A DNA stretch of 17,679 bases from a virus (IMGVR_UViG_3300029234_000244); one strand, 5' to 3'. Positions 1,228-15,292 are shown, counted from the first letter of the stretch. Numbers and translations: made by a program. Notes: generated by a model from the sequence alone, not told the origin.

Positions 1228-1515
1228 TTACTGTCTCTGGCAATCTTTATCGCGATAACGCCTGAAGTACCCTCTCGCTTCCTCATCCATACCAAGAGCC
1301 GAATGAGTCCGCTTAACTGCCTGTCTTAAATCTCCGAATCTGTCTGTAGTTGCTGGTGGGCGTGCCGCCTTACGGATACATTCAGAGCGTCTGTTTGCTG
1401 CATGTTCACGTTCTTTATCGCCATCTGCCAGCATCATGACTTCTGCCCATCGTGCGGCAGCTCTCCGGTATAGCCCTTTTGACTCCAGCTCTTCAGCTTT
1501 CCTGTCCTTTATCAT
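1228..1515 (-). CDS. PerC-family transcriptional regulator (Pch-like)
   Basis: 95-aa ORF with GAGAGG Shine-Dalgarno before the ATG at 1515. N-terminal AEELESKGLYRRAAARWAEVM resembles the conserved LE.KGLWRRAA.RW motif of PerC/Pch proteins, recalled from memory. Confidence 0.5.
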   Translation of the reverse strand: MIKDRKAEELESKGLYRRAAARWAEVMMLADGDKEREHAANRRSECIRKAARPPATTDRFGDLRQAVKRTHSALGMDEEARGYFRRYRDKDCQRQ

Positions 1516-1546
1516 TTCTGCCTCTCAGATTATATAGATAAGCAAA

Positions 1547-1672
1547 AAGGTGTTGGTTCAGTTGGTTCAGTTGGTTCAATTTGTAAAGAGCGTTGTTTTT
1601 ATTGTGTTTTTTCTAAAATATTGAACCAACATCAACTCATTTTGAACCAACACAGCCCAGCTCTGAACCAAC
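1547..1672. repeat. Iteron cluster 1 (crr-like): 3 tandem GTTGGTTCA, AT-rich spacer, then 3 inverted copies TGAACCAAC at 21-bp phasing
   Basis: GTTGGTTCA at 1552-1560, 1561-1569, 1570-1578. TGAACCAAC at 1622-1630, 1643-1651, 1664-1672. The first ~55 bp are a near-perfect reverse complement of 8497-8556. Confidence 0.65.
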
Positions 1673-1723
1673 AACACAGCGATAGATTTGTGATTGGTCC
1701 GTTATTTTCTGGCTGATATTTGA

Positions 1724-1758
1724 GCGTATAACAGTGTTATACAGTGGTATACTGTATG
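1724..1758 (+). promoter_or_regulatory. Operator-like repeats (TATACAGT-type, two direct and one inverted) before the RHH gene
   Basis: gtataACAGTgttatACAGTggtatACTGTatgg immediately upstream of the ATG at 1775. The geometry is ACAG-N7-CTGT, not a LexA box. Confidence 0.3.
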
Positions 1759-1774
1759 GATATTACTCACTGAT

Positions 1775-2230
1775 ATGGTCTTTGCAATGAGCAAATCTAA
1801 TCTGGTCGCGTTCCGCATCCCATCTGAATTGCAGGATGAGTTTAATCGGTCTGTTCTCGCTTCTGGAGGGGATAAAACCTCCTGGCTTGTTGATGCGATT
1901 CGCATGAAGCTGGGACAGCCGGAAAAGTCTATTGATTCACGAATGCTTGGGCTGGTGGAGCGCATGGAAAAAGCCGCTGCGTCGCTTATTGCCGGAAAGC
2001 CGAACATCCCACCAAAGCCATATAACGAAACGGCAGTTATAAAGATCATTGCCGATACCATCCGACAGGGATTTGATAATGGGCGCGTGATAGCTGAACG
2101 GATCAATGAAGCAGGCTATCAAACAAAAGCTGGTAAGGCATGGGATAAAGATATTTACAGCGCGTGGAAGCGTCAGGGAAGCAATGCTGAAAAGTTATCA
2201 GTGGCGCTACATTCAGCGCCATCGCTATAA
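1775..2230 (+). CDS. Putative DNA-binding regulator with N-terminal ribbon-helix-helix-like fold
   Basis: 151-aa ORF. N-terminus NLVAFRIPSELQDEFNRSVLASGGDKTSWLVDAIRMKL has the beta-strand/helix/helix pattern of RHH (CopG/Arc-type) proteins. C-terminal IAERINEAGYQTKAGKAWDKDIYSAWKR resembles recombinase-type DNA-binding motifs. No convincing Shine-Dalgarno; an alternative ATG lies at 1787. Confidence 0.55.
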   Translation: MVFAMSKSNLVAFRIPSELQDEFNRSVLASGGDKTSWLVDAIRMKLGQPEKSIDSRMLGLVERMEKAAASLIAGKPNIPPKPYNETAVIKIIADTIRQGFDNGRVIAERINEAGYQTKAGKAWDKDIYSAWKRQGSNAEKLSVALHSAPSL

Positions 2231-2231
2231 T

Positions 2232-3194
2232 TTATTCAATATCAAATAAATGCCTTGGGAAACCGTTATTATCAGGTAATCCCATGGCTGTCAGGTTACA
2301 TCCTGGTAAGTTAGGCTTGTTATCTACAAGGTTGGCAACTTTTTTTATCCAGTCAGATCCCGGTCCAATTTTTTTCACTAAAAACCATAACACAGCGATC
2401 ATTCCGTACATTCTTTCGTACGCATCATCATTCATATTTAATTGTTCAAAGTACGGCTCATTTGGCAAAGGCATTAATCTTGGTTCGTTGACCTTGTTCC
2501 AGATGCGTGAATGGTGAGCGCACCGATTCCTTAGCACATTCATTGCGCTAAGCCAGTTTTGGAAGATAGCTCCATTGCCTGCCGCTATCCCTAGCCTAGA
2601 TAGTATCCTGTTGCGATAGCTGTCTTTTAGCATCGCATAATACTTTGACATTAAGCCGAAGTCCCACACTTCAATAACCACCCAGAAAGGAAGACCTTCG
2701 TACTTGTTTTCATGCCATTTGATAAAGTCTTCGCGACTTTTAGCAATCTCGGCATTATGTTTATTTATCCATTCTTCTCTGGCGCTTGGGCGACCATGGG
2801 AACGTGGTCTAAAGTGTTTTGGATTTATTAGCGAGTCATCAAGATATGCTAAAGGAGATATCTTACCAAGCTCATGAGCAATAACTGACCGAACATAAAC
2901 CTCAATGCGTTCTAACGCATTCATCATCTGCAAACGCAGATTTTTATCGAATAAATAGAGGTCATATACTGCGCGAAAATTAGTACCTGGACGAACCTGA
3001 TCGAGTCTGGTTCTAATATTGTCTGTTGTTATATGGGGGATTCGGCAGGGGTACCAAAAGCCTGATAATCGGTAGTAGCCTACTTGTGAGATTTTCTTGA
3101 TAGCATGTTCGCGATCTGGCACATCCATACCCCGAGACAGCAATAAATCGACAAGTTCATCATATTCTTTATGAACCTTAACCGGAACAGCCAT
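2232..3194 (-). CDS. Abi_2-family abortive infection protein (AbiD/AbiF-like)
   Basis: 320-aa ORF with hallmark motifs GYYRLSGFWYP and LRNRCAHHSRIWN, and a typical N-terminus (YDELVDLLLSRGMDV). The gene is visibly AT-rich. Its stop is 1 nt from the stop of the convergent RHH gene. Confidence 0.8.
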   Translation of the reverse strand: MAVPVKVHKEYDELVDLLLSRGMDVPDREHAIKKISQVGYYRLSGFWYPCRIPHITTDNIRTRLDQVRPGTNFRAVYDLYLFDKNLRLQMMNALERIEVYVRSVIAHELGKISPLAYLDDSLINPKHFRPRSHGRPSAREEWINKHNAEIAKSREDFIKWHENKYEGLPFWVVIEVWDFGLMSKYYAMLKDSYRNRILSRLGIAAGNGAIFQNWLSAMNVLRNRCAHHSRIWNKVNEPRLMPLPNEPYFEQLNMNDDAYERMYGMIAVLWFLVKKIGPGSDWIKKVANLVDNKPNLPGCNLTAMGLPDNNGFPRHLFDIE

Positions 3195-3782
3195 ACAAAA
3201 GGTTTCCTACCTCCAGATACAAGAAGGCCCGGCCATAACAATTTCTCATCTAAGACAAGATAAAGCCAGGGGGCCGGGCTCAGTTGAGTGTAACTCTATC
3301 CGAAGTTATCCACATGTCAATGCACAGTTACTTAGGAAACTAACATAGGTACTATCATCACTCACGAAAAACCACTATATGTGGTTTTTATTCATATCGT
3401 TATCCACTACAGGCTGTGTCAATAACTTTTACCTATTAATTGGGTAATTTCTACATTTTCCTATGCTGGCTAGTTTCTCTACTGAAAAGTTGGCACTCCT
3501 TAATCGCTTTTCGGTTAATGCTATCGGTCTTCATATTACCAGCAGCATACGCCATCCGATTATTTCGATGCTACGCGCGCGTACTTGTCTCGAAATTGGT
3601 GTTTTGCTGTGGCAGTGATATCAGAAAAATCTTCCTGTTTCACATAAAGCGGATATGTGCGCACTGTAACGGCCCCATCAACGGGGATCGGATTTGAAAT
3701 CCCGACCCAAGCTATGTACCAAATGCCATGTCTTGGATATATGATGATTGCCATTCTAAACAACGCTAAAGGGAGGGTTGGT

Positions 3783-4181
3783 GTGAATCAATTGAAGCGA
3801 TTGGTTGTCTCCGGTTTATTATTTGCTTCTTTTGGAGCGAACGCTGAATGCTGGATTATTGGTGATCTGAAAGGACAAGAAGCCTCAAGTTCAGATGGGT
3901 ATAACTATAAGTTATCATCTATACCAGATACCTTTCATTTGGTAATAAGTAAAGAGAAGGCGGATCTTATCTTGGCAAAAGATGGTATAGGTGGAAGTAT
4001 TGATTATTACCCGCTATCTCCGAATGCCATGATGGGAAGAAGCTATCGAGATGGTCAACTGACGCTTGTCACATGGGCAATCTCAAATGACGGAAAAGTG
4101 ATCCATACACGAACAATTAGTCGATCTGATATAGGCTCATTTACAGGCTCATTTGTCGGCAATGTTAAAGGCAAGTGTTAA
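3783..4181 (+). CDS. Small secreted (periplasmic) protein of unknown function, Sec signal peptide
   Basis: GTG at 3783 sits 5 nt after a strong Shine-Dalgarno AAAGGGAGG, giving MNQLKRLVVSGLLFASFGANA|ECW... (n-region, hydrophobic core, A-x-A cleavage site). Mature protein is about 112 aa with one Cys near each end. The ORF track frame extends upstream to ATG 3657 and 3741, but those starts lack a Shine-Dalgarno. Confidence 0.5.
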   Translation: MNQLKRLVVSGLLFASFGANAECWIIGDLKGQEASSSDGYNYKLSSIPDTFHLVISKEKADLILAKDGIGGSIDYYPLSPNAMMGRSYRDGQLTLVTWAISNDGKVIHTRTISRSDIGSFTGSFVGNVKGKC

Positions 4182-4242
4182 TGTTCATAACTATTTGAAA
4201 AAATACTAATTACTATTATAACCAACCATCCATGGCCATCTG

Positions 4243-6348
4243 TTATTGAGCTTCCTTTTGCGATGCTTGTGCGACTCTGGTGAGCGATTGTGTGACCGTA
4301 CTGATCGCTCTGTCATATGCTGTGCTACCTTTTGGCGTATTTGCCAGACGTAACAAGGCATTTCGTATAACAGGGCTTTCGTATGCCTTCGCTGCTCCGC
4401 CTACGGCACCAGCAGCAGGAACAACAAACGCAGCCGTTTTTAGCATCCCCGCTAATACTGCTGCGTTTATGATGCCACCACCAACTAACAATCCATAAAG
4501 CTGCTGACCATTTAAGTTTTGAACGTTCGCTTTTGCCGCGTGTCTTGTATCGTTGAGGTATTTAATAACGCCGTCCAGTTCCTTTCCATGTATGCCTTTA
4601 AAGAAAGTTGCTGATTGCTTCCTGTTCCGGTGTAACGCATTAATAAACTTCTCAACACTGATATTTCCAGACGGATCAGTCGCCTTATCTACAGCATTCT
4701 GAACTATGGCTGCTCGTGCGTTTTGCCTACCATTGTCATCCAGAAGCCTGTAAAGCTGAGAACGTTCTGATGGGCTTTGGCTAAAAACAAGTTTTGTTAC
4801 ATCCTCAGGCGTGGCCTTGCCGCTGGCTATTGCCTTTTGAACGCGCGTTCTTCCCATCATGTCATTGAATTTAGACCATGAGCGATCAACCCTTGCCATA
4901 TTAATAGCTTCGTCTGCTCCAAGATTTTTGGCTACGGCTTTTTTCATATCCGCCGTATATGCCTTGTAGATAATATCGCTGGCTTTCTGGAGCGTATCTT
5001 TATCAACAGTGTCAGATGACGCCATAAATCGCTTTCGAAGATCGGTTCTGTTTTCCCTCGCCAGACGCAGGTCATTTGGTCCGCTGGTGATATCGTCTTT
5101 AAATTGCTGCAAGACTTTTACCGCGGCTCTATCCTGAGATTTGCCCGGGCGGCTTAACACGGCAATCTGATTGTCGATAGCTTTTACCGTGTTTGAGAGA
5201 TCGACAGGGGTATCCCCCATAGCGTCAATTATGCGGTTATATCGCTTTCCTGCTGCCTCAATGAATTTTTGTTGCCCTTTAGTCGCAGATTCATAAAGCT
5301 GTTTATCAGAAATGCCACCCAGACCATCGCTAAATGTTCTGACTAAATTTTCTCGTGCTTGTTGTTGATTCAGCCGATTCTTACCGGTTCCAAAAAAAGG
5401 AACTCTTTCGCCTAATGTCTGAGCCTGACTCTGCATAAAGGTTTTATCTTTCAGCATGTCACTGGTCATTAACGGCAGATTTCTTTCCGATGCAAAGTCG
5501 ACAGCAGCCTTTGCTTCAGGCGACATATCACCACGAACAGCCCTCGAAACCGCACTCGCTGTATTTTCCAGCCCCTTACCAATACCACCAATGCCAGCAG
5601 AAATTACCGTTTGTAACGGATCAATATCTTCTCCACCAGCGAGGCTGGTGGCTCCCTGTAGTGCTAAATCTGTAGCTGCTGATTTCCCTATGGCCCCCAG
5701 CACCGTTCCGGCCCTGCCCGCTGGTGTAAACGCCAGCGCATTAGCCAGAAACGATGCCACGTCTTGCGGCGATAAACCCGGCTTGTTCAGAGCATAATCA
5801 CCGGATGGCAGGGAAACGATAGTGTTACCCTTCTCATCCTGCCTTAATTTCGCTCCCATGCTCTGAAGAATCTTTTCCTGAGATGCGTCAGAGCCGAAAA
5901 GTTGAGACCATCGAGCTTTTAGAGCATCCATGCTGAGTGAGGTTAACTCTGGGGCAAGGTCGACATTTTGCAGTCTCTCCATCTCTGGAGTCATTCGGCT
6001 TTCGCCTGTTATAGCATCGCGCATCGCAGCCCCAAGACTGGCTCCCTGTTCTGCTGAACGCTCAAGCCCCTCTCTTTGCTGAGTAGCTAACTTTGCATAC
6101 CCTGACGCAATAGAATTATCAGATGATGTATGTTGAATATTTTGAGTTGCTGATTGGGATCGGTCTATTTCATTCGTTGATGGTAGTGGATAGGCAGCAT
6201 AAAAAGCCTGCTTAGCCTGCTCTACACTTTCTCCGGCTTGCGGGGCAACGACTTCATTGAAGTATTGCTCCTGAGCCTGCGCTTTTTGTTCTGGTGCTAA
6301 CGCCTGATACTGTGGAGAGGCGATAACATCTTTCCATGCTTTAGCCAT
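4243..6348 (-). CDS. Hypothetical 701-aa protein, Ala/Gln/Gly-rich, C-proximal hydrophobic Gly/Ala segment
   Basis: Long ORF with GGGGTGA Shine-Dalgarno; its ATG overlaps the upstream stop (TAATG at 6346-6350). Contains LYGLLVGGGIINAAVLAGMLKTAAFVVPAAGAVGGAA about 60 aa from the C-terminus. I see no Walker A or other catalytic motif. Confidence 0.8.
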   Translation of the reverse strand: MAKAWKDVIASPQYQALAPEQKAQAQEQYFNEVVAPQAGESVEQAKQAFYAAYPLPSTNEIDRSQSATQNIQHTSSDNSIASGYAKLATQQREGLERSAEQGASLGAAMRDAITGESRMTPEMERLQNVDLAPELTSLSMDALKARWSQLFGSDASQEKILQSMGAKLRQDEKGNTIVSLPSGDYALNKPGLSPQDVASFLANALAFTPAGRAGTVLGAIGKSAATDLALQGATSLAGGEDIDPLQTVISAGIGGIGKGLENTASAVSRAVRGDMSPEAKAAVDFASERNLPLMTSDMLKDKTFMQSQAQTLGERVPFFGTGKNRLNQQQARENLVRTFSDGLGGISDKQLYESATKGQQKFIEAAGKRYNRIIDAMGDTPVDLSNTVKAIDNQIAVLSRPGKSQDRAAVKVLQQFKDDITSGPNDLRLARENRTDLRKRFMASSDTVDKDTLQKASDIIYKAYTADMKKAVAKNLGADEAINMARVDRSWSKFNDMMGRTRVQKAIASGKATPEDVTKLVFSQSPSERSQLYRLLDDNGRQNARAAIVQNAVDKATDPSGNISVEKFINALHRNRKQSATFFKGIHGKELDGVIKYLNDTRHAAKANVQNLNGQQLYGLLVGGGIINAAVLAGMLKTAAFVVPAAGAVGGAAKAYESPVIRNALLRLANTPKGSTAYDRAISTVTQSLTRVAQASQKEAQ

Positions 6349-7814
6349 TAATCACCCCATAGTGAAGAAAAGTTACTGCTGGCTGCTGGCTGTGATACCT
6401 GCTCAGATTGCGGCAATGTCTGCGACGAAGAAGAAGTTCCTCTGTCAACTGCTGAAATAACCCGCAAAGCATCATAAGTTCGACCAGAAGCAGCTTTCAG
6501 CGAATTGAACTGGTTTTCCATCTTCCGGCGCTTGGTATCAATGGTTTTTGTGGAGTCGCCAGGCTGAGGGAAATACATTTGATAATATTTTGACATTTCA
6601 GCAGGTGCGATAGCTGCCCCTGTTTCCTGACGGAGTATTGCCATTATTGCGTCATTAGCATTAACAACGTATTGCTGCTCTGCTGGGCTGAGCGTTAAGT
6701 TAGCCAGCGTCCCATTACCCAAAGCATTATTAATGATCGCCACTCGCTGTGGGCTAAGCTGGTCTTTCAGTGTATCTATTGAATCAAGAGCATCCCTAAC
6801 CCTGTATGCAAATCCAGCAGCTTTTTTAGCCCCTTCTGGCGACTTTTCCATGATCTTTTGGGCTGTTGGCAAAGCTATTGGACGAAACCCATCTCCAGAT
6901 ATTGGCTGGTTTAGTTTTCCCTGCTCTTCACTTCCGTCTGTGTAGTATTTTGTGACAGTGCCATCATCGTTTTCTCTAACACTCATTAATTTTTTGGTGT
7001 TTGTATTAATTCCAGCCGCTGCCGCAAATGCCGCCGCCCCCTCTGGATCAGCCTTTAACATTTGCGCGTACTGATTGTAATTCTGCATTGCTGCTGTTGG
7101 TGCATATGCTGACGTTAACGCATTTGCTCGGCTAATATCCTGCCCTCTCGCCTGAAGTGCTTCACCAGCCTGATTGCTGCGGATTGTCTCTGCCAACTTG
7201 CCACGCTCAATATCCCGACTTTCCATTTGATCTTTGATATCGAAATACTTCTCATGACCGAGAGAAAACAGCGCCAGATTACCTGCGAAATGCTGGAAGC
7301 CCTGCGGGTCATTAACCTGCATTTCAGCAATAGTTTCTGGAGGGATACCTAAACGACGCATCTCCTGCTCATTATCCATCATGAACCTGCCAAATGCGCC
7401 CGGACCAAGCGATGAGGCTACCTGTGCTTTGAGCGCCAGATTGCCATAATCATCCCTTTGAGCATCATCGACATAACTCATCCCTTTACGGACTTCCTCA
7501 AACTCTTCTGGGAATGCTGTAATAAGATTACGCATCTGCTCCCTGTCACCGGACGCATAAGCATCTGCATAACCTTTCTGGAATGCCGCTTTACGCTCCT
7601 GCTGTTGCTGCTGCTTATAAATATCAGCAACTCCAGCCAGACCACGAAGACCTGTCAGAGCAACGTTATTTGCACCTGATCGAGCCAGTTCATTGTTTTC
7701 GCGGATCAGACCAAGCGTTGCGTTAATGTCGCTTGCCTTTGGCGCATTCTCATTTTGCGTACCGATGCCAGCAAGAAACCCACCAGAATTAATACCCTGT
7801 TGCCACGTAGCCAT
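6348..7814 (-). CDS. Hypothetical 488-aa protein, Gln/Ala-rich, no recognisable domain
   Basis: Long ORF. I prefer ATG at 7814 (MATWQQGINSGG...), 4 nt after the stop of the 57-aa gene. The ORF track uses a GTG at 7826, which would overlap that gene. Stop overlaps the start of the 701-aa gene. Confidence 0.8.
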   Translation of the reverse strand: MATWQQGINSGGFLAGIGTQNENAPKASDINATLGLIRENNELARSGANNVALTGLRGLAGVADIYKQQQQQERKAAFQKGYADAYASGDREQMRNLITAFPEEFEEVRKGMSYVDDAQRDDYGNLALKAQVASSLGPGAFGRFMMDNEQEMRRLGIPPETIAEMQVNDPQGFQHFAGNLALFSLGHEKYFDIKDQMESRDIERGKLAETIRSNQAGEALQARGQDISRANALTSAYAPTAAMQNYNQYAQMLKADPEGAAAFAAAAGINTNTKKLMSVRENDDGTVTKYYTDGSEEQGKLNQPISGDGFRPIALPTAQKIMEKSPEGAKKAAGFAYRVRDALDSIDTLKDQLSPQRVAIINNALGNGTLANLTLSPAEQQYVVNANDAIMAILRQETGAAIAPAEMSKYYQMYFPQPGDSTKTIDTKRRKMENQFNSLKAASGRTYDALRVISAVDRGTSSSSQTLPQSEQVSQPAASSNFSSLWGD

Positions 7815-7818
7815 TGAT

Positions 7819-7992
7819 TTACCCACGTCCAGTTAAAGTGTAAGCCAGCGCCTTATCCATTAATCCCCGAGCAATTTCGTGGATCGTTGGCGCAACTCCT
7901 ACCTCTGATTTTTTACGCTGCTCCTCCTGAATTTTCTTTATCGCTTCCATTTGCTTCTCACTTATCAATACCGGCTTTACTGAAATAGCCAT
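7819..7992 (-). CDS. Small 57-aa protein, helix-rich, possible DNA-binding (HTH/RHH-like); first gene of the LexA-box operon
   Basis: Translated by hand: MAISVKPVLISEKQMEAIKKIQEEQRKKSEVGVAPTIHEIARGLMDKALAYTLTGRG. Shine-Dalgarno AAGGGGG lies 4 nt before the ATG at 7992. Below the 60-aa cut-off of the ORF track. Confidence 0.55.
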   Translation of the reverse strand: MAISVKPVLISEKQMEAIKKIQEEQRKKSEVGVAPTIHEIARGLMDKALAYTLTGRG

Positions 7993-8005
7993 AACGCCCC
8001 CTTAG

Positions 8006-8031
8006 AACTGTATAAAACAACAGTTATTATA
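8006..8031 (-). promoter_or_regulatory. LexA (SOS) box CTGT-N8-ACAG abutting a TATAAT -10 element
   Basis: Plus 8008-8023 CTGTataaaacaACAG, within the palindrome AACTGTATAAAACAACAGTT (8006-8025). On the minus strand TATAAT (8031-8026) lies immediately upstream. The box sits 14 nt before the ATG of the 57-aa gene. The -35 is weak. Confidence 0.6.
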
Positions 8032-8087
8032 GTTTCACAAATCGCAATATTCATCATCGTAATTGCAAAATATGAAACAAACAGCAC

Positions 8088-8120
8088 AAAAAAATGCCAC
8101 CGCTCAGTAGCTGGTGGCAT
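8088..8120 (-). terminator. Rho-independent terminator (minus strand) ending the primase operon
   Basis: Minus-strand reading ATGCCACC-(11 nt loop)-GGTGGCAT followed by T7 (plus-strand A-run 8088-8094). Lies downstream of the primase gene and iteron cluster 2, just before the LexA promoter. Confidence 0.6.
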
Positions 8121-8440
8121 CGTTCTGTGTGTCAGGTTTTGACAGGTTTTTTATGGACTCTAAAAACTATATTTATGGTGTCGCATTACTCTTCACGGCA
8201 GGCGCTTTTCAGTTCTGCCCTTGCTTCTGGCTCCATTGGTAATTTGATTCGCGATCAGCTATGCGGATGGTTTGCTGAACAGGCATAACAACTTCTCAGG
8301 GGCTGTTTTCTGAACTACGAAAATTTCGTAGTGCTCACTTTCAAAAACGTCACGCCCTTGTACACAGGATTTTACGAAAGTCTCGTAAAACACTCTCTGA
8401 TGCCAGCCAGGTGTTGAGCGCATCAATTCAGTCACATTGT

Positions 8441-8551
8441 GTTGGTTCAAAATACCGTGTTGTTGGTTCAGTGTTGGTTCAATAAAAAGAATAAAATCCT
8501 TACAAAACAATACTCTTTGCAAATTGAACCAACTGAACCAACTGAACCAAC
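8441..8551. repeat. Iteron cluster 2 (ori-like): 3 GTTGGTTCA at 21/11-bp spacing, AT-rich spacer, then 3 tandem TGAACCAAC
   Basis: GTTGGTTCA at 8441-8449, 8462-8470, 8473-8481. TGAACCAAC at 8525-8533, 8534-8542, 8543-8551. Located 25 bp after the primase stop. Inverted relative to cluster 1. Confidence 0.65.
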
Positions 8552-8576
8552 ACCTTTTCTACGCACATGAAGAAGC

Positions 8577-11333
8577 TCATTCTTCAGATGAGTTATAATC
8601 TCCTGGCTGGTAATTGAGTACATAAACGTTTATTTGTCGTCCCTGAATACGTGGTGATTTTCTTTGGTATCCACGACCGCTGTTTGGTGGGGTTAGCATC
8701 CCGGCTTTTTTCAACACTTCAGCAAACTGTTTTGCGTTGAAACCACATGCGATCTCCTTTTCAAATGTGGCCGGGAATGTGTAGAAAATCATTGGGCTTT
8801 CGTCATGTTCTCCACGCTGACGGTATCCGGCTAAATCTTTGATGGGCAAATCTGCCGGGCTGTATGGAAATGGTGCAAAACGGCTAAGCCCATAGGCATT
8901 AAGAAATGCCTCCGTTTGTTCAATAATCTGCTGATGTTCTTTGTTACCTGTGCCGAACTCGCGCAACCATGCGTTATAGCTGTGCTGTATCGCATCACGG
9001 CATGTCTGAGCATCCCAGCCTGTTACAACTTCGCCTAACAGCAATGCTGCCTCCAGAATGGCAAATCGCGCGGCTACACGGTGAACCTGCTCACCATAAT
9101 CGGATGGGATCAGGCTTCTCCATCTGCTTTCGCAATCACGAACAGTTTTAATAGCCTGTTGCTGGTGGTCTGCCAGCCATTTAATCCACTCACGCCCGGC
9201 TGCGCCGTGGTGATGCTGGTAAGCGTCTTTCAGTGCGTCTGCGTGCTGTTTTCCGTTCTGGTAATCGTGAAAGCGTACTGCTTTACTCAACGGAATATTC
9301 AGCAGTCGCACCAGTTGCCCGGCTTTGGTTTTTCGCCCGGAAGTAGCGATAAATGTTTCTAAATCCATTTCTCCGGTGCTGATTGCCACTGTACGCCAGC
9401 GTTTTAGATCCCGGTTTCCACCATCTTTAGCGCCTTGCAGTTTCCCTACACCGTTAAATAACGCATAGGCAGACTGTGAAACGCTGACAGGATCAGCGCC
9501 CTGACCAACTTCATCAAGCGGCATTAATCCGTCATTGTGGGCGGCGGCCTCATTTGCCAGCCCCAGCGCGGTTCCGTACCACGTCAGCCGCAGTAAATCA
9601 GGGTTGCCGTATAAGCTGCTCGCCACGTTTGCCGTGGTGGTCTTACCCGCGCTCGACTGCTCATAGAAATGAATGCCGAACCCGTCAGCGCCCACCAGCC
9701 CAATCAATGGCGCTGCCAGTGCTGCGCCGATCCCGGTCATCATTGAATAGTTACCAAAGGCCAGACGCGCCACGTTATCACGCCAGCTTTTCGCGCTCCC
9801 TGAGACGGTATATCCGGCTGCGGCTGAGCTTCTCCCGCTGAACAGCACAGGATTTTCAGGTGTTCCGATGATTTCCCCATCAGGCATGATGTACGCTCCG
9901 CATTGCCAGCCAGTGGCATGAGCAACACGCCACAATTCACGAGAGCCACTGCGTTGTAGCCAGTCTGCCAGTATTGCTCTGAGGCTGCTTTTGGTCGTGA
10001 CATTTACCCCACCAGCTTTAAGTGTGCGCCATCCTTCACGTTCACCAATATCAGCCAGTGGAATGGCAGCGGTTGTCGGCGTTTCAGAACCAAACGACAG
10101 CCAGCGAAGAATGAGATACTGGTCTTTATCGTCTCTGCCAGTACCGATAACGCTTAACGGAGAACATAACCAGCTTTCGTTATTGATGATTTCTCCACTC
10201 TGGCTGTCAGCTCTCGGAGATACCCAATAAATACCATCCTCGCGGCTTTCTATTCTTGGTTTCAGTGGGTCGGTATCCATAACCTTAAAATCGCTTCCCT
10301 CAATGGTCTGTGGCTCCTGTTTCACGCCATTACCCTGTGGTTGGTACATTGACTTATTGAACGCTTCTGTGGCGCATTTAATGCCGTGTTTTTGGTGGTA
10401 ATCATTCCAGTCTGCTTTGTGATCTGTCGGGGGTAATGCCACCCATCCAGAAACAGATAAAGCTGCTTTTTCTGCTGCTATTCTCCCCGTGTTTTGTCTT
10501 CCTTCGCTGTGGTCGTTATCCGCAGCAATGATGATTTGTGCTGAAGGAAATTTATCCCGCAGTACCTGGGCGACATATAACAGGTTCCCGGCATCAATCG
10601 CCGCCACTGTCAGCGCCTCTGGACGAATTAAATGGGCAGATAATGCCGTTGCCAGCCCTTCTGCGATTAAGATGCTCTGTGTTGTTTCTGGTGCGTTTAT
10701 GGCGTGATATGCCCCTCGCTTTGCTGAACCTGTCAGGAGTCTTTTTTCACCATGTGAGGTAATAGTCTGTGCTGCTGTGACTGCGCCGGATTTATCCACC
10801 AGCGCCAGCAACAGAGATCCATCGGGCAACACGGGGAATGTAAAATCACCTACCCCTTTCGCAACCAGATAATCAGATTTGCCGTTTACAGCCTTTCTGC
10901 GCATGTCATCAAACTGACGGGAAAACGTATCCCGTCTTTGTTGTTCGTCCTTCTCTGCCCTTTTCAGGCGCTCCTGTTCGCGTCGCTGGCGCTCGGTTTC
11001 CAGTTGTTCCCGTTTCTGGCTGGTGGCTTCTGGTGTTTCCGTTGTCCGGTAATCAATACCCAGAACATCAGCGGCAAGAAGCGCCGCCTCTGTTGTGTCG
11101 CAGTTATTTACGCGTTTAATTAAATCCAGCCCATCACCAGCGCCGCACTGATTACAGATGAAGCTACCGCGCCCGTTGTCATCGAACCGGAATCGATCTT
11201 TGCCCCCACATGCAGGGCAGGGAGCATGACGGCGCGGAGAGTCAGGGACATTTATGTTCAGGCAGCCCAGCACATGAGGCCAGTTGTTTTCAGACGCACT
11301 GATAACCTGACGGATAAGATCAATGTTTCGCAT
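8577..11333 (-). CDS. P4 alpha-like primase-helicase (zinc-ribbon + TOPRIM primase, C-terminal P-loop/origin-binding region)
   Basis: 918-aa ORF. N-terminal zinc ribbon CPACGG...FICNQCG. TOPRIM motifs LIAEGLATALS (conserved Glu) and IIIAADNDHSEG (DxD). P-loop-like SSAGKTT. Shine-Dalgarno GGGGG before the ATG at 11333. Confidence 0.9.
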   Translation of the reverse strand: MRNIDLIRQVISASENNWPHVLGCLNINVPDSPRRHAPCPACGGKDRFRFDDNGRGSFICNQCGAGDGLDLIKRVNNCDTTEAALLAADVLGIDYRTTETPEATSQKREQLETERQRREQERLKRAEKDEQQRRDTFSRQFDDMRRKAVNGKSDYLVAKGVGDFTFPVLPDGSLLLALVDKSGAVTAAQTITSHGEKRLLTGSAKRGAYHAINAPETTQSILIAEGLATALSAHLIRPEALTVAAIDAGNLLYVAQVLRDKFPSAQIIIAADNDHSEGRQNTGRIAAEKAALSVSGWVALPPTDHKADWNDYHQKHGIKCATEAFNKSMYQPQGNGVKQEPQTIEGSDFKVMDTDPLKPRIESREDGIYWVSPRADSQSGEIINNESWLCSPLSVIGTGRDDKDQYLILRWLSFGSETPTTAAIPLADIGEREGWRTLKAGGVNVTTKSSLRAILADWLQRSGSRELWRVAHATGWQCGAYIMPDGEIIGTPENPVLFSGRSSAAAGYTVSGSAKSWRDNVARLAFGNYSMMTGIGAALAAPLIGLVGADGFGIHFYEQSSAGKTTTANVASSLYGNPDLLRLTWYGTALGLANEAAAHNDGLMPLDEVGQGADPVSVSQSAYALFNGVGKLQGAKDGGNRDLKRWRTVAISTGEMDLETFIATSGRKTKAGQLVRLLNIPLSKAVRFHDYQNGKQHADALKDAYQHHHGAAGREWIKWLADHQQQAIKTVRDCESRWRSLIPSDYGEQVHRVAARFAILEAALLLGEVVTGWDAQTCRDAIQHSYNAWLREFGTGNKEHQQIIEQTEAFLNAYGLSRFAPFPYSPADLPIKDLAGYRQRGEHDESPMIFYTFPATFEKEIACGFNAKQFAEVLKKAGMLTPPNSGRGYQRKSPRIQGRQINVYVLNYQPGDYNSSEE

Positions 11334-12422: not shown

Positions 12423-12607
12423 TTTTCACCCCCAAGAATTACCAGCTCGGCACGGGCATCGTTAACCAAAGATGAGCACGCTTTAATCGCATCCACGACA
12501 TCAGCAGTTTCTTCAGCCGAAAGACTGACAGCAACCAGGACAGCCGCTGCTTGCTCGATTAATTGAAGTGCGGACGTAAGGCGAGGGGTATTAATTGAGT
12601 TATTCAT
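12419..12607 (-). CDS. Hypothetical 62-aa protein
   Basis: Start chosen at ATG 12607 ([10 protein letters not shown]...) with GGGGG Shine-Dalgarno and ATGAATAA overlap with the upstream stop. The ORF track start at 12664 lacks a Shine-Dalgarno. Confidence 0.5.
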   Translation of the reverse strand: MNNSINTPRLTSALQLIEQAAAVLVAVSLSAEETADVVDAIKACSSLVNDARAELVILGGEK

Positions 12608-12818
12608 TGGTTGCCCCCGTTTTGCATGGCATTTGTCCACCTTCCAGCAGGAAATGAACGTCACGAACGGCGAGATCCAATATCGCGAGTAACGCCTTCA
12701 GTCTTTCGTCTCGTGAGGGAGAGTTGCTCACCAGAATGTCGTTAATCACTTCTGTCAGTGTGATGATCTGGCTTGTGCGTTCGAGGGGATCCATATGCAC
12801 ATCGTAGGTTTTAATCAT
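12600..12818 (-). CDS. Hypothetical 72-aa protein
   Basis: ATG at 12818 ([17 protein letters not shown]...) preceded by GGAGGTG Shine-Dalgarno; overlaps the Icd-like stop (ATGATTAA). Shares its frame with the C-terminus of the 342-codon ORF. Confidence 0.5.
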   Translation of the reverse strand: MIKTYDVHMDPLERTSQIITLTEVINDILVSNSPSRDERLKALLAILDLAVRDVHFLLEGGQMPCKTGATNE

Positions 12819-13628
12819 GTGCCACCTCCATGCGGATACGACCAGCAAAAAAGCAGACGTGATCGCGCACCAGAGAACGGCGAGCATCGCGTTCAGACTC
12901 GGCAGCAATATGATGAATTTTGGCGGTAATTGTCGGGCAATCGCGGCGAACTGCGGCGATAATCCAGATAAATTGAGGTTTTTGGGTAGGGGTAGTAGCC
13001 AGCATGTGGCAGCCTCCTTGATTGATGGTTTATAGCCACCGCCCAAGAGACCAATCTTGCTGGCGGTGGACTGTACGGAGTTGGCCTTACTGGCAATCAA
13101 GGAAACCAGCCTACCCGAAGGTAGCCCCATACAGCCCACCATTGATAAGGTGTGCGTGTGCGCCGATACAAAAAAAGACGCTGGCGCGTCATGTATCGCC
13201 TCGATTGTCAGCGGGAGGCCAATCCCGGCACCCGTTTTATGAGGTGCTTTATAACCATAAACCGTGTTGCCGCATAACGGCAAGCTCTTTTTTATGGACT
13301 CCGAAAACTCAGTATTGGAAGCACCAGATGCACAGTACATCGCGCTCATTTCGTTAACGTCACGCACGTGGACGAATGTTTTTGTGGAGTCACTACACGA
13401 GCGGAAGACATCATCTACGACCAGAAATTTTCTGGCGCAGCCGCTGACCTTCTCAATGCTAATATCATCGCCCGAGATTTCTGGTATGGTTAAGGCATCC
13501 GTTCCGACCACCAGCAAATGATAAACTTTGCTTGCATCTGCTGTATTAATGCCTGACTTTGCCGTCATATTGCTGGATTTTGGCGACATACCTGCCAGTG
13601 AAAATGTCTTCTTCTGGACGGTTAGCAT
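12600..13628 (-). CDS. Hypothetical protein; 342-codon ORF that is probably composite (only the first ~205 codons, about 13012-13628, are well supported)
   Basis: ATG at 13628 has GGAGG Shine-Dalgarno and is coupled to the DUF4222 stop (ATGCTAA). The frame stays open to 12600, but codons about 208-270 run out of frame across the Icd-like gene and translate to low-complexity sequence. Codons 271-342 equal the separately supported 72-aa gene. Confidence 0.4.
12811..13005 (-). CDS. Host cell division inhibitor Icd-like protein (64 aa)
   Basis: ATG at 13005 preceded by a strong Shine-Dalgarno AGGAGG at 7-nt spacing. Protein [21 protein letters not shown]...[16 protein letters not shown] resembles Icd-like proteins of P4-like islands, from memory. 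Confidence 0.5.
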   Translation of the reverse strand: MLATTPTQKPQFIWIIAAVRRDCPTITAKIHHIAAESERDARRSLVRDHVCFFAGRIRMEVAHD

Positions 13629-13804
13629 TTGTTAACCTCCGCGAACTCCTTCATGAAACGTGCCAGCGGTTGTACGCATGGCGATTGATACCCGTCGCGA
13701 TAAAACGTCACTCGGTTGTGAGACACGCTTTCGACAGTAACGAGTGCTCCGTGGGCATCTTTGTAGCGTTTTTGTGGTTGTGGTATTCCTGTTGGCTTAG
13801 ACAT
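13622..13804 (-). CDS. DUF4222-like small protein (60 aa)
   Basis: ATG at 13804 (MSKPTGIPQPQKRYKDAHGALVTVESV...RVTFYRDGYQSPCVQPLARF) overlaps the AntA stop. The pattern matches DUF4222 as I recall it. The ORF track start at 13891 would overlap AntA. Confidence 0.55.
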   Translation of the reverse strand: MSKPTGIPQPQKRYKDAHGALVTVESVSHNRVTFYRDGYQSPCVQPLARFMKEFAEVNKC

Positions 13805-14630
13805 TGAGCGCCTCCAGACGCTTGGCGAGCCAGCGTTGCGACAGGCGGGTGAGTTCTCCTTTGCGCTGCTCATATTCCATGCCCATATCAATTAACGTGA
13901 TATTGGTGCTTTCGAGATATGAGAGGTGCTCAAGCTGTTCTGCGTTCATATGGTCGCGAGGTTCGCCAGAATAGCCATTTATCCGCGCCCACTGCTTAGC
14001 AGTTAGCCCACCAAGAACGATACGAGAAATCATATTGCTCTCGTTTGTGTAGTGGTGTTGCTGCGTCGTTTTCCCCTGCTCGGCACGGGCCATGTTCAGC
14101 GCATCGCACATTGGCTTAAAGTTGTTTGCGGCACTGATACGGGCTTTTAGCTGGCGACGATAGCGGGCGGCGATTTCAGGCACGGTACGCTGTAATTCTT
14201 CCTCGCACTGGATGAAATAACGACGGATAGCGCGACCCTGATCATTGCGTTCGATCATTGCCAGTTCTTTCGCCATTCCGACACTTAACAGATAGTCTTT
14301 GCCGGGTCTGCCAGACTGCTTAATCTTGCTGTAAGCCGCGCCATTCGGGCTTTTCCCCAAATTTGGGGAAATTGTTTTATGGACTGAGTAATCGTGCCCA
14401 ATGGTGAAGTCATATTCAGAGATGCGATCAGTGATCCATGTAGAGAAGTCTTTTCCCACGCCCAACGCTTTGTGTAACGCTTTTGCGCTAACAATATTGG
14501 TTTCACGCCCACCTATATGACCAGAAATAACCGGGACAATTGCGGCAAATTCATTACCGTTAATTGTGCCCAGAGAGGCGTTCAGATGAGGGGCGGCCTC
14601 AGAAATTAATCTGCTTTTTTCGATGTTCAT
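13797..14630 (-). CDS. Phage antirepressor, AntA/AntB family
   Basis: 277-aa ORF. SAKALHKALGVGKDFSTWITDRISEYDFTIGHDY and DYLLSVGMAKELAMIERNDQGRAIRRYFIQCEE match the AntA-domain consensus pattern. GGAGA Shine-Dalgarno. Confidence 0.7.
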   Translation of the reverse strand: MNIEKSRLISEAAPHLNASLGTINGNEFAAIVPVISGHIGGRETNIVSAKALHKALGVGKDFSTWITDRISEYDFTIGHDYSVHKTISPNLGKSPNGAAYSKIKQSGRPGKDYLLSVGMAKELAMIERNDQGRAIRRYFIQCEEELQRTVPEIAARYRRQLKARISAANNFKPMCDALNMARAEQGKTTQQHHYTNESNMISRIVLGGLTAKQWARINGYSGEPRDHMNAEQLEHLSYLESTNITLIDMGMEYEQRKGELTRLSQRWLAKRLEALNV

Positions 14631-14642
14631 TTTTAGTCTCCG

Positions 14643-15074
14643 TTAGGCGGCGTTAAACGCGTCCGGGTAGAGTTTCAGAATGTCGGCAATTTCCTGCTGA
14701 GAAAGTCCGTTGTGATCATTTATGTTCGCAAGATGGTTAACATGAGTGATCACTTTCAGAACATCACCACGGCAGGAGAAACGGTAGCGAAGGTGTGTTC
14801 CGATACCATCAGGATTCTTTTCGTCGATACGCTCCAGAGTGATTCCAAGCTGGCGTTCTAACTCTGTTGCATAGTTACGACCAGAAGACAGACGGCAGTA
14901 GCGAAGAATGTCATTTTCTGTCCATCCCTCTATACCAGTACGCAGCATATAGACTCGGGCACGATGCTTTTTCGGTGTGCGCTTTGGTGCTTGAAGGGAT
15001 TTTGTAAGGGGCGTAATATCAGATACGCGAATATCTGAATTAGCCGCCTGTAATGGGCGGTTTTTCTTTTCCAT
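14643..15074 (-). CDS. Hypothetical 143-aa protein
   Basis: ORF with ATGA overlap to the alpA stop (15072-15076); basic N-terminus; no recognisable motif. Confidence 0.65.
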   Translation of the reverse strand: MEKKNRPLQAANSDIRVSDITPLTKSLQAPKRTPKKHRARVYMLRTGIEGWTENDILRYCRLSSGRNYATELERQLGITLERIDEKNPDGIGTHLRYRFSCRGDVLKVITHVNHLANINDHNGLSQQEIADILKLYPDAFNAA

Positions 15075-15292
15075 CAGGCCACCTTCCCGCGGCGTTCTGC
15101 CAGCCAGTTATTAATTTCCACCGCATCAAACGCAGTCACGTTATCTGTTAGCTTCACTGGGCGTGGAAGAGTGCCATTTTTAACCCATCTATCAATAGTA
15201 GGCAGTGAAACACCTAGCAATTCCGGCATGCGAAAGCGACGGATGTATCCAGTTGTTGGGATAGCTGATGATGCTGGCTTGTGTGCTGTCAT
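15074..15292 (-). CDS. alpA: AlpA-family phage transcriptional regulator
   Basis: 72-aa ORF. MPELLGVSLPTIDRWVKNGTLPRPVKL...AFDAVEINNWL fits the AlpA HTH pattern (HTH followed by FP.P.KL and a W-containing tail). First gene of the coupled operon. Confidence 0.8.
   Translation of the reverse strand: MTAHKPASSAIPTTGYIRRFRMPELLGVSLPTIDRWVKNGTLPRPVKLTDNVTAFDAVEINNWLAERRGKVA

What the first reader, a model, noticed from the sequence alone, without database searches (positions are those of the whole stretch)
1547..8556. Two inverted iteron clusters, 6.9 kb apart, bracket the accessory segment: ori/crr-like architecture
Each cluster holds six copies of the 9-mer GTTGGTTCA / TGAACCAAC, three tandem and three phased at about two helical turns. 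The first ~55 bp of cluster 1 (1547-1601) are a near-perfect reverse complement of 8497-8556. Cluster 2 lies 25 bp after the primase-helicase stop. In satellite P4, replication needs ori plus a distant cis-acting crr, each made of repeated octamers bound by the alpha primase-helicase; this island appears to copy that logic with a different iteron sequence. Everything between the clusters (LexA operon, secreted protein, Abi_2, RHH regulator) is accessory cargo, which makes the inter-iteron interval a candidate cargo hotspot.
Basis: partly seen in the sequence, partly recalled or inferred. Interest (0 to 1): 0.55.

Follow-up and report, generated by a model that had tools for sequence, protein, structure and literature searches.

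The report
Split replication origin bracketing satellite cargo
The two inverted repeat clusters are the two halves of a phage-satellite replication origin that normally sit side by side, here pulled 6.9 kb apart by inserted cargo genes, which makes it a natural test of whether such origins can work at a distance as in satellite P4.

Summary
There are 12 exact GTTGGTTCA copies, six per cluster. Each cluster reads tandem triplet, 43-bp AT-rich spacer, three phased inverted copies. The clusters are mutually inverted, and one starts 25 bp after the primase-helicase stop.

The window is an EcCIMP1-family PICI, a phage satellite; its Pri-Rep is 915/918 identical to EcCIMP1's. Across about 57 related islands an iteron module follows Pri-Rep almost universally. 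About 30 have a second, inverted module directly abutting it, as in the validated EcCICFT073 origin. About 15, including the window, have 0.16-8.8 kb between the modules. At least 11 show only the first module within 10 kb.

Both modules carry the same iteron word in every specificity class seen. That word co-varies with about 13 residues in the wing of the winged-helix-like C-terminal domain of Pri-Rep.

Two Lonsdalea islands with 93-97% identical backbones differ by a 5.9-kb cassette whose breakpoints lie at the iterons.

The best reading is a split PICI origin. It shares its module grammar with P4 ori/crr and its primase domain is homologous to P4 alpha's. The helicase and origin-binding part is of SaPI-Rep/Cch type. 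Whether the second module is needed in cis is untested. There is no LexA operon in the interval; the largest genes encode P22-type ejection proteins.

The parts
8441..8558 (-). Read on the - strand it runs: 7-nt conserved outer flank, tandem iterons 8551-8525, AT-rich spacer 8524-8482, then phased iterons 8481-8473, 8470-8462 and 8449-8441.
   Evidence: An equivalent module lies 25-60 bp after the Pri-Rep stop in nearly all related loci. Iteron columns are 0.97 conserved against 0.30 for the inner flank across 31 islands.
1545..1672 (+). It has tandem iterons 1552-1578, an AT-rich spacer 1579-1621 that holds the conserved box CAATTTGTAAAG..TTGTTTT, and phased iterons 1622-1630, 1643-1651 and 1664-1672.
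   Evidence: It is always inverted relative to A in the 14 loci compared. Iteron columns are 0.82 conserved against 0.49 between iterons and 0.31 in the inner flank across 17 islands.
1526..1544 (-). Conserved outer flank of module B, between the tandem triplet and the perC start. Read on the - strand it is ...TTTTTGCTTATCTATATAAT; the family consensus is CTTTTGCTTATATATA.
   Evidence: No sigma-70 consensus promoter was found here.
8577..11333 (-). Pri-Rep primase-helicase, 918 aa. It has a zinc ribbon and Toprim primase domain homologous to P4 alpha, a DUF927 helicase of SaPI Rep/Cch type, and a C-terminal winged-helix-like domain.
   Evidence: It is 915/918 identical to the EcCIMP1 protein.
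8616..8672 (-). Codons for the C-terminal segment GYQRKSPRIQGRQINVYVL (about residues 888-906), the predicted wing. This segment changes whenever the iteron word changes.
   Evidence: QRKSPRIxGRQxN goes with GTTGGTTC and QGRVREDGRQIR with TGTTGTCT, in otherwise about 90% identical C-terminal domains.
8403..8410 (-). CTGGCTGG motif about 30 bp inside the phased iterons of module A.
   Evidence: present at this position in 29 of 57 related loci, against a background of 0.23 per 330 bp.
1709..1715 (+). CTGGCTG motif about 37 bp inside the phased iterons of module B, in the same relative position as at module A.
1228..1515 (-). perC-family regulator gene. It starts 36 bp beyond the tandem triplet of module B.
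   Evidence: PerC, E 3e-33. The B-perC adjacency is also seen in compact relatives such as L003.
1775..2230 (+). It is the last gene of the cargo block and is transcribed away from module B. It has its own upstream repeats at about 1727-1760.
   Evidence: Homologues sit next to B in L012, L019, L020, L025, L059 and L060.
2232..4181 (.). Variable slot next to module B: Abi_2 abortive-infection gene (2232-3194, - strand) and a 174-aa gene (3657-4181, + strand) whose product has a signal-peptide-like N-terminus by reading of the sequence.
   Evidence: This slot holds different genes in E. coli relatives L082-L085 and L088.
4243..7992 (-). Helper-related module: gp16-like ejection protein (4243-6348), gp20-like ejection protein (6348-7826) and a conserved 57-aa ORF (7819-7992).
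   Evidence: Inj_translocase, E 7e-84; PHROG 770 and 917. The module is conserved in E. coli relatives.

Best explanation
The window is a phage-inducible chromosomal island (PICI) of the EcCIMP1 family.

The two clusters are the two modules of this replicon family's bipartite replication origin. Each module is an array of sites for the winged-helix-like C-terminal domain of the island's own Pri-Rep primase-helicase. Each has the grammar of a complete PICI-type origin: iterons in opposite orientation on either side of an AT-rich stretch that can melt.

Module A (8441-8558) sits 25 bp after the Pri-Rep stop and is present in nearly all relatives. It is the primary site where Rep hexamers bind, open the AT-rich spacer and load themselves.

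Module B (1545-1672) is the inverted partner. In most relatives it directly abuts A. Here, and in about 14 other islands, a block of helper-exploitation and defence genes lies between them.

I infer that B still binds Rep. I infer that it acts as a second loading or initiation site, or as an auxiliary site that Rep-Rep contacts can bridge to A. I also infer that the shared iteron arrays act as homology anchors through which cargo cassettes are exchanged between islands of the same Rep specificity.

Shown here: the anatomy, the conservation, the co-variation and the cassette gain or loss. Inferred only: Rep binding, origin firing at B and cooperation between the modules.
For: 1. Anatomy and significance of both modules.

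2. Island identity. Integrase, AlpA, AntA and Pri-Rep are present. Pri-Rep is 915/918 identical to that of EcCIMP1, a PICI shown to excise and to be transferred by phage Kapi1. EcCIMP1 carries the same two six-iteron modules 8.4 kb apart.

3. A module follows the Pri-Rep stop in nearly all of about 57 informative loci from many Enterobacterales genera.

4. About 30 loci have A and B abutting in a 260-320 bp array. The validated EcCICFT073 origin has the same layout, with an inverted tandem pair at each end (PMC6092414).

5. B is inverted relative to A in all 14 two-module loci examined.

6. All of the iteron-word classes seen (at least eight) show the same word in both modules. The word tracks a segment of about 13 residues in the Rep C-terminal domain.

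7. The C-terminal domain model (pLDDT 78) matches the Cch MCM-like helicase 5DGK (E 2e-4, probability 1.0) and then winged-helix oriT-binding proteins. The helicase core hits a chain named 'Pathogenicity island protein' (8TCH, E 1e-11). SaPI Reps read iterons through a C-terminal winged-helix domain (PMC9371898).

8. Conservation footprint: iteron columns are 0.97 (A) and 0.82 (B) conserved, against 0.3-0.5 for the flanks. E. coli B variants keep the iterons and the 21-bp phasing while the sequence between them is replaced.

9. Lonsdalea L045 (compact) and L012 (split) share a 93-97% identical backbone. They differ by 5.86 kb in place of 118 bp, with breakpoints at the last phased iteron of A and at the tandem triplet of B.

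10. Cargo between the modules differs by genus.
Against: - No experiment shows Rep binding or initiation at either module of this island.
- At least 11 relatives show only module A within 10 kb downstream. B is therefore either dispensable or farther away in those.
- In one group of compact relatives the spacer of B is GC-rich, so B cannot always be a melting site.
- In compact relatives equivalent cargo lies after B rather than between the modules. The accessory region is thus simply 3' of A, and only the position of B varies.
- The route by which B came to lie distal to the cargo is not resolved.
- Decayed E. coli islands keep B plus perC but have lost A. This would also fit a role of B tied to perC rather than to replication.
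Confidence: 0.7

Rival explanations
1. A true P4-style ori plus crr system. Both modules are needed in cis. Rep bridges them into a DNA loop and initiation happens at only one of them. The system is indifferent to distance and orientation, which is why cargo can accumulate in the loop.
For: P4 crr lies 46 bp 3' of alpha and ori lies 4.7 kb away. P4 modules share the grammar of tandem pair at a 9-10 bp period, AT-rich spacer of about 35 bp, then inverted copies. The ori module is inverted relative to the crr modules. The N-terminal primase domain is homologous to P4 alpha. The A-B distance ranges from about 0 to 8.8 kb with both modules conserved. EcCIMP1 is mobilised with an 8.4-kb separation.
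Against: The helicase and origin-binding domains are not P4-like. A-only relatives exist. The closest validated origin, EcCICFT073, is compact. That P4 needs both sites and loops them rests on my recollection of the P4 literature; it was not checked here beyond the record's annotation 'cis required region'.
Confidence: 0.25
2. Module B is mainly a Rep-responsive promoter or operator. It couples expression of the gene downstream of it (perC here) to the amount of initiator, and is not an origin.
For: The tandem triplet of B is always followed by a conserved TTTTGCTTATATATA-type box and then a gene co-oriented with pri-rep, whatever that gene is. In the window perC needs its own promoter, because the neighbouring orf151 is divergent, and the only available space is module B. 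Decayed islands retain B plus perC without A. The spacer of B is GC-rich in some relatives.
Against: No sigma-70 consensus promoter is found in 1400-1900, and candidate -35 hexamers are poor by reading of the sequence. The TATAAT lies only 13 nt from the perC ATG, too close to be a -10 for an mRNA that includes the Shine-Dalgarno sequence. B keeps a full origin grammar, including the AT-rich spacer and a spacer box shared with A, which an operator would not need.
Confidence: 0.2
3. Module B is a copy-control array. It titrates Rep or pairs with A ('handcuffing'), as auxiliary iteron arrays do in iteron plasmids, and so limits island replication.
For: It is a second array of the same initiator sites outside the minimal origin, conserved together with it. 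Uncontrolled PICI replication is toxic (PMC6092414).
Against: PICIs replicate in a burst after induction and are not known to need stable copy control. B has origin grammar rather than being a plain array. Nothing tested here bears directly on this.
Confidence: 0.12
4. The clusters are the terminal inverted repeats of a transposable or invertible cargo unit.
For: The 55-nt, 95% complementary inverted repeats bracket variable cargo.
Against: There is no target-site duplication: the flanks outside the arms are ATAGATAAGC and CTACGCACAT. No transposase or invertase lies in the interval. Module A keeps a fixed position after the Pri-Rep stop in all relatives, and its word co-varies with Pri-Rep. 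The predicted inversion junction is found in 0 of 556 E. coli genomes that carry the element.
Confidence: 0.02
5. Module B is a functionless relic of a duplication or recombination at the origin.
For: A-only relatives exist. The number and orientation of the inner iterons of B vary.
Against: The iterons of B are conserved far above their surroundings across at least 9 genera. They switch word together with Rep. They are exact in E. coli variants whose inter-iteron sequence has been replaced.
Confidence: 0.06

Closest known systems
EcCIMP1, a PICI of E. coli MP1 mobilised by the P22-like phage Kapi1 (PMC11773190)
   Same: Pri-Rep is 915/918 identical. The backbone is the same (AlpA, AntA, DUF4222, ash, primase), as are the ejection-protein genes downstream of the primase and perC at the far end. 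The same two six-iteron modules are present, 8.4 kb apart.
   Different: The integration site differs (thrW/proA against yicC-dinD), and so does the integrase. EcCIMP1 also has DUF2824 and a neighbouring gene, and different genes in the slot next to module B. The paper does not mention iterons or an origin.
Gram-negative PICI replication origin, as validated for EcCICFT073 (PMC6092414)
   Same: It lies immediately 3' of pri-rep. It consists of iterons on both sides of an AT-rich region. Its overall layout has a tandem iteron pair at each end in inverted orientation, which matches the compact A+B form seen in about 30 relatives of the window.
   Different: The EcCICFT073 array is one contiguous stretch of about 230 bp, with a different iteron (TGTCTACC) and a different, shorter primase protein. 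In the window the two ends are complete modules, each with its own AT-rich spacer, 6.9 kb apart.
SaPI origin with Rep self-loading helicase, and SCCmec Cch (PMC9371898; PDB 8TCH, 5DGK)
   Same: The helicase core is homologous to a chain named 'Pathogenicity island protein'. The C-terminal domain fold matches Cch. The rule is the same: the origin follows rep and has at least two iterons on each side of an AT-rich centre pointing in opposite directions.
   Different: The iterons here are 9-mers rather than penta- or hexanucleotides. The primase domain is of P4 alpha type. No second, distant module is described for SaPIs in the text read.
Satellite P4 ori plus crr with alpha primase-helicase (NC_001609)
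   Same: The N-terminal primase domain is 33% identical. One repeat set lies just 3' of the gene (crr) and another, inverted set lies kilobases away. The module grammar is identical: tandem copies, AT-rich spacer, inverted copies.
   Different: There is no detectable similarity beyond residue 361. P4 alpha has a different helicase and origin-binding domain. The P4 repeat is TGTTCACC. P4 crr is a direct duplication of the module. P4 ori lies upstream of the alpha operon, not downstream. The cis requirement has been shown for P4 only.

Membership tests
PICI-type replication origin | It lies immediately 3' of the rep or pri-rep gene. | tested here: met
   Module A starts 25 bp after the Pri-Rep stop. 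The same holds in nearly all related loci. Module B does not meet this in the window, but it does in compact relatives.
PICI-type replication origin | Two sets of iterons flank an AT-rich region, with at least two per side in opposite orientation. | tested here: met
   Both modules have three plus three iterons in opposite orientation around a 43-bp spacer of 77-79% A+T.
PICI-type replication origin | The cognate Rep is a self-loading helicase with a C-terminal winged-helix domain that reads the iterons. | tested here: met
   Sequence hits to 8TCH and 5DGK. The fold of the C-terminal domain matches 5DGK and winged-helix DNA binders. A wing segment co-varies with the iteron word. Binding itself was not tested.
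PICI-type replication origin | The Rep plus ori segment drives autonomous replication. | not testable with these tools
   This needs a plasmid maintenance assay, as done for EcCICFT073 (PMC6092414).
PICI (island) | Integrase, AlpA and pri-rep in one transcriptional direction, no full set of phage structural or lysis genes, and mobilisation by a helper phage. | tested here: met
   Gene content. The replicon is near-identical to EcCIMP1, which is mobilised by Kapi1. Mobilisation of this particular island was not tested.
P4 ori/crr system | An alpha-type protein with primase, SF3 helicase and the P4 origin-binding domain in one chain. | tested here: not met
   Only residues 7-361 align with alpha. 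The helicase is DUF927 / SaPI-Rep type. The P4 alpha origin-binding domain is not among the fold matches.
P4 ori/crr system | Two separate cis elements built from the same repeat, one next to the 3' end of the primase-helicase gene. | tested here: met
   Window. P4.
P4 ori/crr system | Both elements are required in cis for replication. | not testable with these tools
   Indirect evidence is mixed. Both modules are conserved and co-vary, but relatives with only module A exist.
Transposable unit with terminal inverted repeats | Target-site duplication, a transposase, and mobility independent of its neighbours. | tested here: not met
   No direct repeat flanks the arms. No transposase family was found. 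Module A has a fixed position relative to Pri-Rep.
Invertible DNA segment | Both orientations occur in populations. | tested here: not met
   The predicted inversion junction is found in 0 of 556 E. coli genomes with the element. Gene order next to A and B is constant in all split loci.
Iteron-plasmid control array (handcuffing) | An extra iteron array lowers copy number by titrating or pairing the initiator. | not testable with these tools
   This needs copy-number measurements with and without module B.

The most novel reading that the evidence does not exclude
PICIs of this replicon family use a true two-site origin like P4 ori/crr. Rep bound at the two inverted modules bridges them into a loop, and this contact is needed for, or strongly stimulates, initiation. 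Because the contact does not depend on distance, the loop has become the island's cargo bay. Cassettes encoding helper-specific virion parts and defence genes are swapped between islands by recombination anchored in the iteron arrays.
Probability: 0.2. Interest if true: 0.7.

Novelty: new variant of a known kind. Interest (0 to 1): 0.5.

Why it matters
PICI origins are described as one compact iteron array right after pri-rep. This family shows that the array consists of two inverted, individually complete modules, and that they can lie up to about 9 kb apart in islands that are still mobilised (EcCIMP1).

That gives a natural series of spacings: abutting, 160 bp, 0.4 kb, and so on up to 8.8 kb, plus islands with module A only. 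The series can be used to test whether self-loading Rep helicases need two loading sites, whether those sites talk to each other at a distance as in P4, and how initiator specificity is encoded, since the wing segment co-varies with the iteron word.

It also suggests a concrete route for the fast turnover of defence and helper-exploitation cassettes in satellites: recombination anchored in shared initiator-binding repeats.

Finally, it links the P4 and PICI replicons. The protein is a chimera of a P4 alpha-type primase and a SaPI-type Rep, and its origin grammar is shared with P4.

Tried and rejected
- Transposon ends: rejected. There is no target-site duplication and no transposase, and the position is fixed relative to Pri-Rep.
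- Flip-flop inversion between the arms: a chimeric query for the inversion junction found no E. coli genome covering it.
- Remnant of a second, inverted island: rejected. No primase remnant lies next to module B, and compact relatives show that B followed by a downstream gene is the normal right half of the origin.
- orf151 as the iteron binder: rejected. Its homologues have their own upstream repeats (tgtaagaca type) and occur without iterons in compact islands.
- Sigma-70 promoters at either module: none found.
- 'LexA operon' in the interval: not found.
- E. coli genomes with a single cluster: the two that were fetched turned out to be decayed islands, not a separate architecture.
- Literature searches for a split or double PICI origin, and for P4 crr biology, in the held library returned nothing usable.
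- The homologue search with the C-terminal domain returned mostly partial proteins. It was used only to build the alignment for the structure model.
- The evolutionary path between 'B before cargo' and 'B after cargo' could not be resolved. B, perC and the cargo block appear in three different orders.

Full report
**1. Observation**

The 9-mer GTTGGTTCA occurs 12 times exactly in the window, six times in each of two clusters and nowhere else. With up to one mismatch there are 17 matches against 4.4 expected, and no shuffle of 200 reaches 17.

- Cluster 1 has three head-to-tail copies at 1552-1578. A 43-bp AT-rich spacer follows, then three inverted copies starting at 1622, 1643 and 1664, spaced 21 bp.
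- Cluster 2 is the mirror image. It has copies starting at 8441, 8462 and 8473, spaced 21 and 11 bp, then a 43-bp AT-rich spacer, then three head-to-tail inverted copies at 8525-8551.
- The arms 1545-1599 and 8504-8558 are 95% complementary over 55 nt.
- The 918-aa primase-helicase ORF (8577-11333, - strand) stops 25 bp from cluster 2.

The description is correct apart from small coordinate and phasing details.

**2. What the island is**

The window encodes the following, all on the - strand:
- a tyrosine integrase (16411-17679);
- AlpA (15074-15292) and AntA (13797-14630);
- a DUF4222 protein;
- the primase-helicase, with a zinc ribbon, Toprim and DUF927 domains.

Downstream of the primase-helicase come a gp20-like ejection protein (6348-7826, Pfam Inj_translocase, E 7e-84), a gp16-like ejection protein (4243-6348), a 174-aa gene whose product looks secreted, Abi_2 (2232-3194), a 151-aa gene and PerC (1228-1515). 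No LexA-like gene lies between the clusters.

In E. coli TB354 the same island sits between yicC and dinD.

Its primase-helicase is 915/918 identical to that of EcCIMP1. EcCIMP1 is a PICI shown to excise and to be transferred by the P22-like phage Kapi1 (PMC11773190). It carries the same two six-iteron modules, 8.4 kb apart. The paper does not mention them.

**3. The protein that should read the repeats**

Residues 7-361 are 33% identical to the primase domain of P4 alpha (E 2e-41). Nothing beyond residue 361 aligns.

Residues 402-813 match a solved chain named 'Pathogenicity island protein' (8TCH, E 1e-11) and, more weakly, the Cch helicase 5DGK.

A model of the last 258 residues was built from 49 homologues (mean pLDDT 78). 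It shows a helical bundle followed by a small alpha/beta domain. Its best fold match is 5DGK (E 2e-4, probability 1.0). The next matches are winged-helix proteins bound to oriT DNA.

SaPI Reps recognise iterons through a C-terminal winged-helix domain. They load themselves on either side of the AT-rich centre of an origin that lies just after rep (PMC9371898). The protein here is therefore a chimera: a P4 alpha-type primase fused to a SaPI-type initiator-helicase.

**4. Comparative anatomy**

A scan of one genome per species with the primase-helicase returned 77 loci, mostly Enterobacterales.

A de novo search for clustered 8-mers found an iteron module 25-60 bp after the Pri-Rep stop in nearly all informative loci. 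The words differ between lineages: GAACCAAC, AGACAACA, ACGGGTTA, TCGGTTCA, GAACCGAC, GTCGGGTA, GTGGGTTA, TGGGATAA and AACCGACC.

The loci fall into three groups:
- **Compact, about 30 loci.** The module is directly followed by a second, inverted module. Together they form a 260-320 bp array with the arrow pattern >>> AT <<< ... <<> spacer <<<.
- **Split, about 15 loci including the window.** The second module lies farther away: 160 bp, 0.4, 0.95, 2.1, 4.6, 5.8, 6.1, 6.7, 6.9 (the window), 7.1, 7.8, 8.3, 8.6 or 8.8 kb. It was inverted relative to the first in all 14 two-module loci compared.
- **A only, at least 11 loci.** Only the first module is seen within 10 kb, and it is followed directly by the next gene.

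The experimentally validated origin of EcCICFT073 has the compact layout. A tandem pair of TGTCTACC sits at each end in inverted orientation, with an AT-rich spacer on the left and a GC-rich spacer on the right (PMC6092414).

The abutting arrangement is thus the known one. The window shows it pulled apart.

**5. Evidence that both modules are functional Rep sites**

- In every iteron class, both modules carry the same word.
- The word tracks a short C-terminal segment of Rep. GYQRKSPRIxGRQxNVYVL goes with GTTGGTTC. GYQGRVREDGRQIRVYVL goes with TGTTGTCT, in proteins whose C-terminal domains are otherwise about 90% identical. Other words have other segments. In the model this segment is the wing that follows the second helix of the alpha/beta domain.
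- Across 31 A modules and 17 B modules, iteron columns are 0.97 and 0.82 conserved, against 0.3-0.5 for the flanks.
- In E. coli variants of B the iterons and their 21-bp phasing are intact although the sequence between them has been replaced. The tandem copy number varies between 2 and 4.

**6. Cargo**

In E. coli relatives the interval always holds the 57-aa ORF and the ejection-protein genes. The 2.5-4 kb next to module B differs between strains: Abi_2 plus orf151, other hypothetical genes, or an HTH gene.

In other genera the interval holds other helper-related or defence genes:
- a tape-measure protein (Leclercia);
- a Dit-like protein and a baseplate hub, or a gpV-type spike (Serratia);
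- an SLT-domain protein and a P4 Beta-family protein (Cedecea);
- a Fic protein (Rosenbergiella).

Two Lonsdalea britannica islands with 93-97% identical backbones differ by 5.86 kb in place of 118 bp.

There is a caveat. In compact islands equivalent cargo lies after B: an SLT protein in L003, SSB in L007, and capsid, portal and terminase genes in L046. The accessory region is therefore always 3' of A, and what varies is whether B lies before or after it.

**7. Comparison with P4**

The P4 record annotates crr, the 'cis required region for replication', 46 bp 3' of the alpha stop. The ori lies 4.7 kb away.

Each 120-bp crr repeat, and the ori on the opposite strand, read as a tandem pair of TGTTCACC-type repeats at a 9-10 bp period, an AT-rich spacer of about 35 bp, then inverted copies. 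The ori is inverted relative to the crr repeats.

This is the same grammar as in the window, and the primase domains are homologous. The helicase and origin-binding parts are not, and the repeat word differs.

That alpha binds and loops both P4 sites, and that both are required, rests on my own knowledge of the P4 literature. I could not verify it in the held library.

**8. Alternatives**

- **Transposon ends** are excluded. There is no target-site duplication and no transposase, and the position is fixed relative to Pri-Rep.
- **An invertible segment** is not supported. The predicted inversion junction occurs in none of 556 E. coli genomes with the element.
- **A promoter or operator role for B** remains possible. 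A conserved TTTTGCTTATATATA-type box follows the tandem triplet in nearly all relatives. perC needs its own promoter in this space. Decayed islands keep B plus perC without A. However, no sigma-70 consensus promoter is found, and B keeps a full origin grammar.
- **Copy control by handcuffing** cannot be assessed here.

**9. Verdict**

The clusters are real. They are the two inverted modules of a PICI-type bipartite origin, read by the island's own Pri-Rep. In this island they are separated by 6.9 kb of helper-exploitation and defence genes.

This is a new variant of a known kind. The origin type and the island family are known. The split, two-module state, its spread across genera, the co-variation of the wing segment with the iteron word, and the cassette exchange anchored at iterons were not found described in the literature I could search.

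Noticed in passing
L054:16234-18909; L034:13170-15015; L037:15215-16102; L059:13629-18009; window 4243-7826: The genes just downstream of the origin module encode virion parts of different helper morphotypes in different genera. E. coli has P22-type ejection proteins, Leclercia a tape-measure protein, and Serratia a Dit-like protein with a baseplate hub or a gpV-type spike with an apex motif. Cedecea has an SLT-domain protein and a P4 Beta-family protein. This suggests that each island carries a helper-specific module.
   Followed up: partly
window 8403-8410 (- strand) and 1709-1715 (+ strand); about +150 to +190 after the Pri-Rep stop in 29 of 57 loci: A CTGGCTGG motif lies 20-40 bp inside the phased iterons, at the centre of compact origins and at the inner side of both window modules (background 0.23 per 330 bp). 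Its function is unknown; a priming or loading signal is one guess. In L042 and L058 the motif reads GCTGGTGG, which is a Chi sequence.
   Followed up: partly
window 1727-1760; L012, L019, L021, L023, L039 and L059 upstream of orf151 homologues: The 151-aa gene has its own short upstream repeats: ctgtata(a)c in the window and tgtaagaca, two or three copies, in other genera. They are distinct from the iterons and look like an autoregulatory operator.
   Followed up: partly
L046:13919-20314: A Serratia fonticola island with the same type of Pri-Rep and a compact two-module origin (iteron GTCGGGTA) carries capsid, portal and large-terminase genes. It looks like a capsid-forming PICI built on this replicon.
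   Followed up: no
L033 (Yersinia pekkanenii), modules at -5712, -1130 and +51 relative to the end of the primase match: Three copies of the compact origin array occur within 6 kb, and the primase match is about 1.1 kb longer than elsewhere. A homologue from this contig is named an HNH endonuclease domain protein (P0119). This could be a duplication, or an insertion in the primase gene.
   Followed up: no
L080:14023-14143; L081:14023-14143: Decayed E. coli islands keep module B and perC but have lost module A. One is joined to a lambdoid prophage remnant. The other has a deletion running from the primase gene into the ejection-protein genes.
   Followed up: partly
L061:3988-4134; L082:21481-21600; L085:13023-13134: The number of head-to-tail iterons varies between islands: 2, 3, 4 and up to 7 copies. 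This is consistent with slippage in the tandem part of the modules.
   Followed up: no
L056:11783-12059 and 17871-17985: A Serratia oryzae island has a compact origin with TGGGATAA iterons. It also has, 6 kb downstream, a B-type module with GAACCAAC iterons that do not match its own Pri-Rep. This may be a remnant of, or a recombination with, an island of another specificity.
   Followed up: no
window 8259-8522 (- strand) and 8437-8598 (+ strand): ORFs of 87 and 53 aa overlap module A. They consist largely of iteron and spacer sequence and are probably not genes.
   Followed up: no
window 12600-13628 (- strand): The 342-aa ORF annotated 'ash family protein' in RefSeq matches PHROG transcriptional regulator families only over residues of about 110-220. 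It overlaps the neighbouring 81-aa ORF, so its real start may lie further downstream.
   Followed up: no
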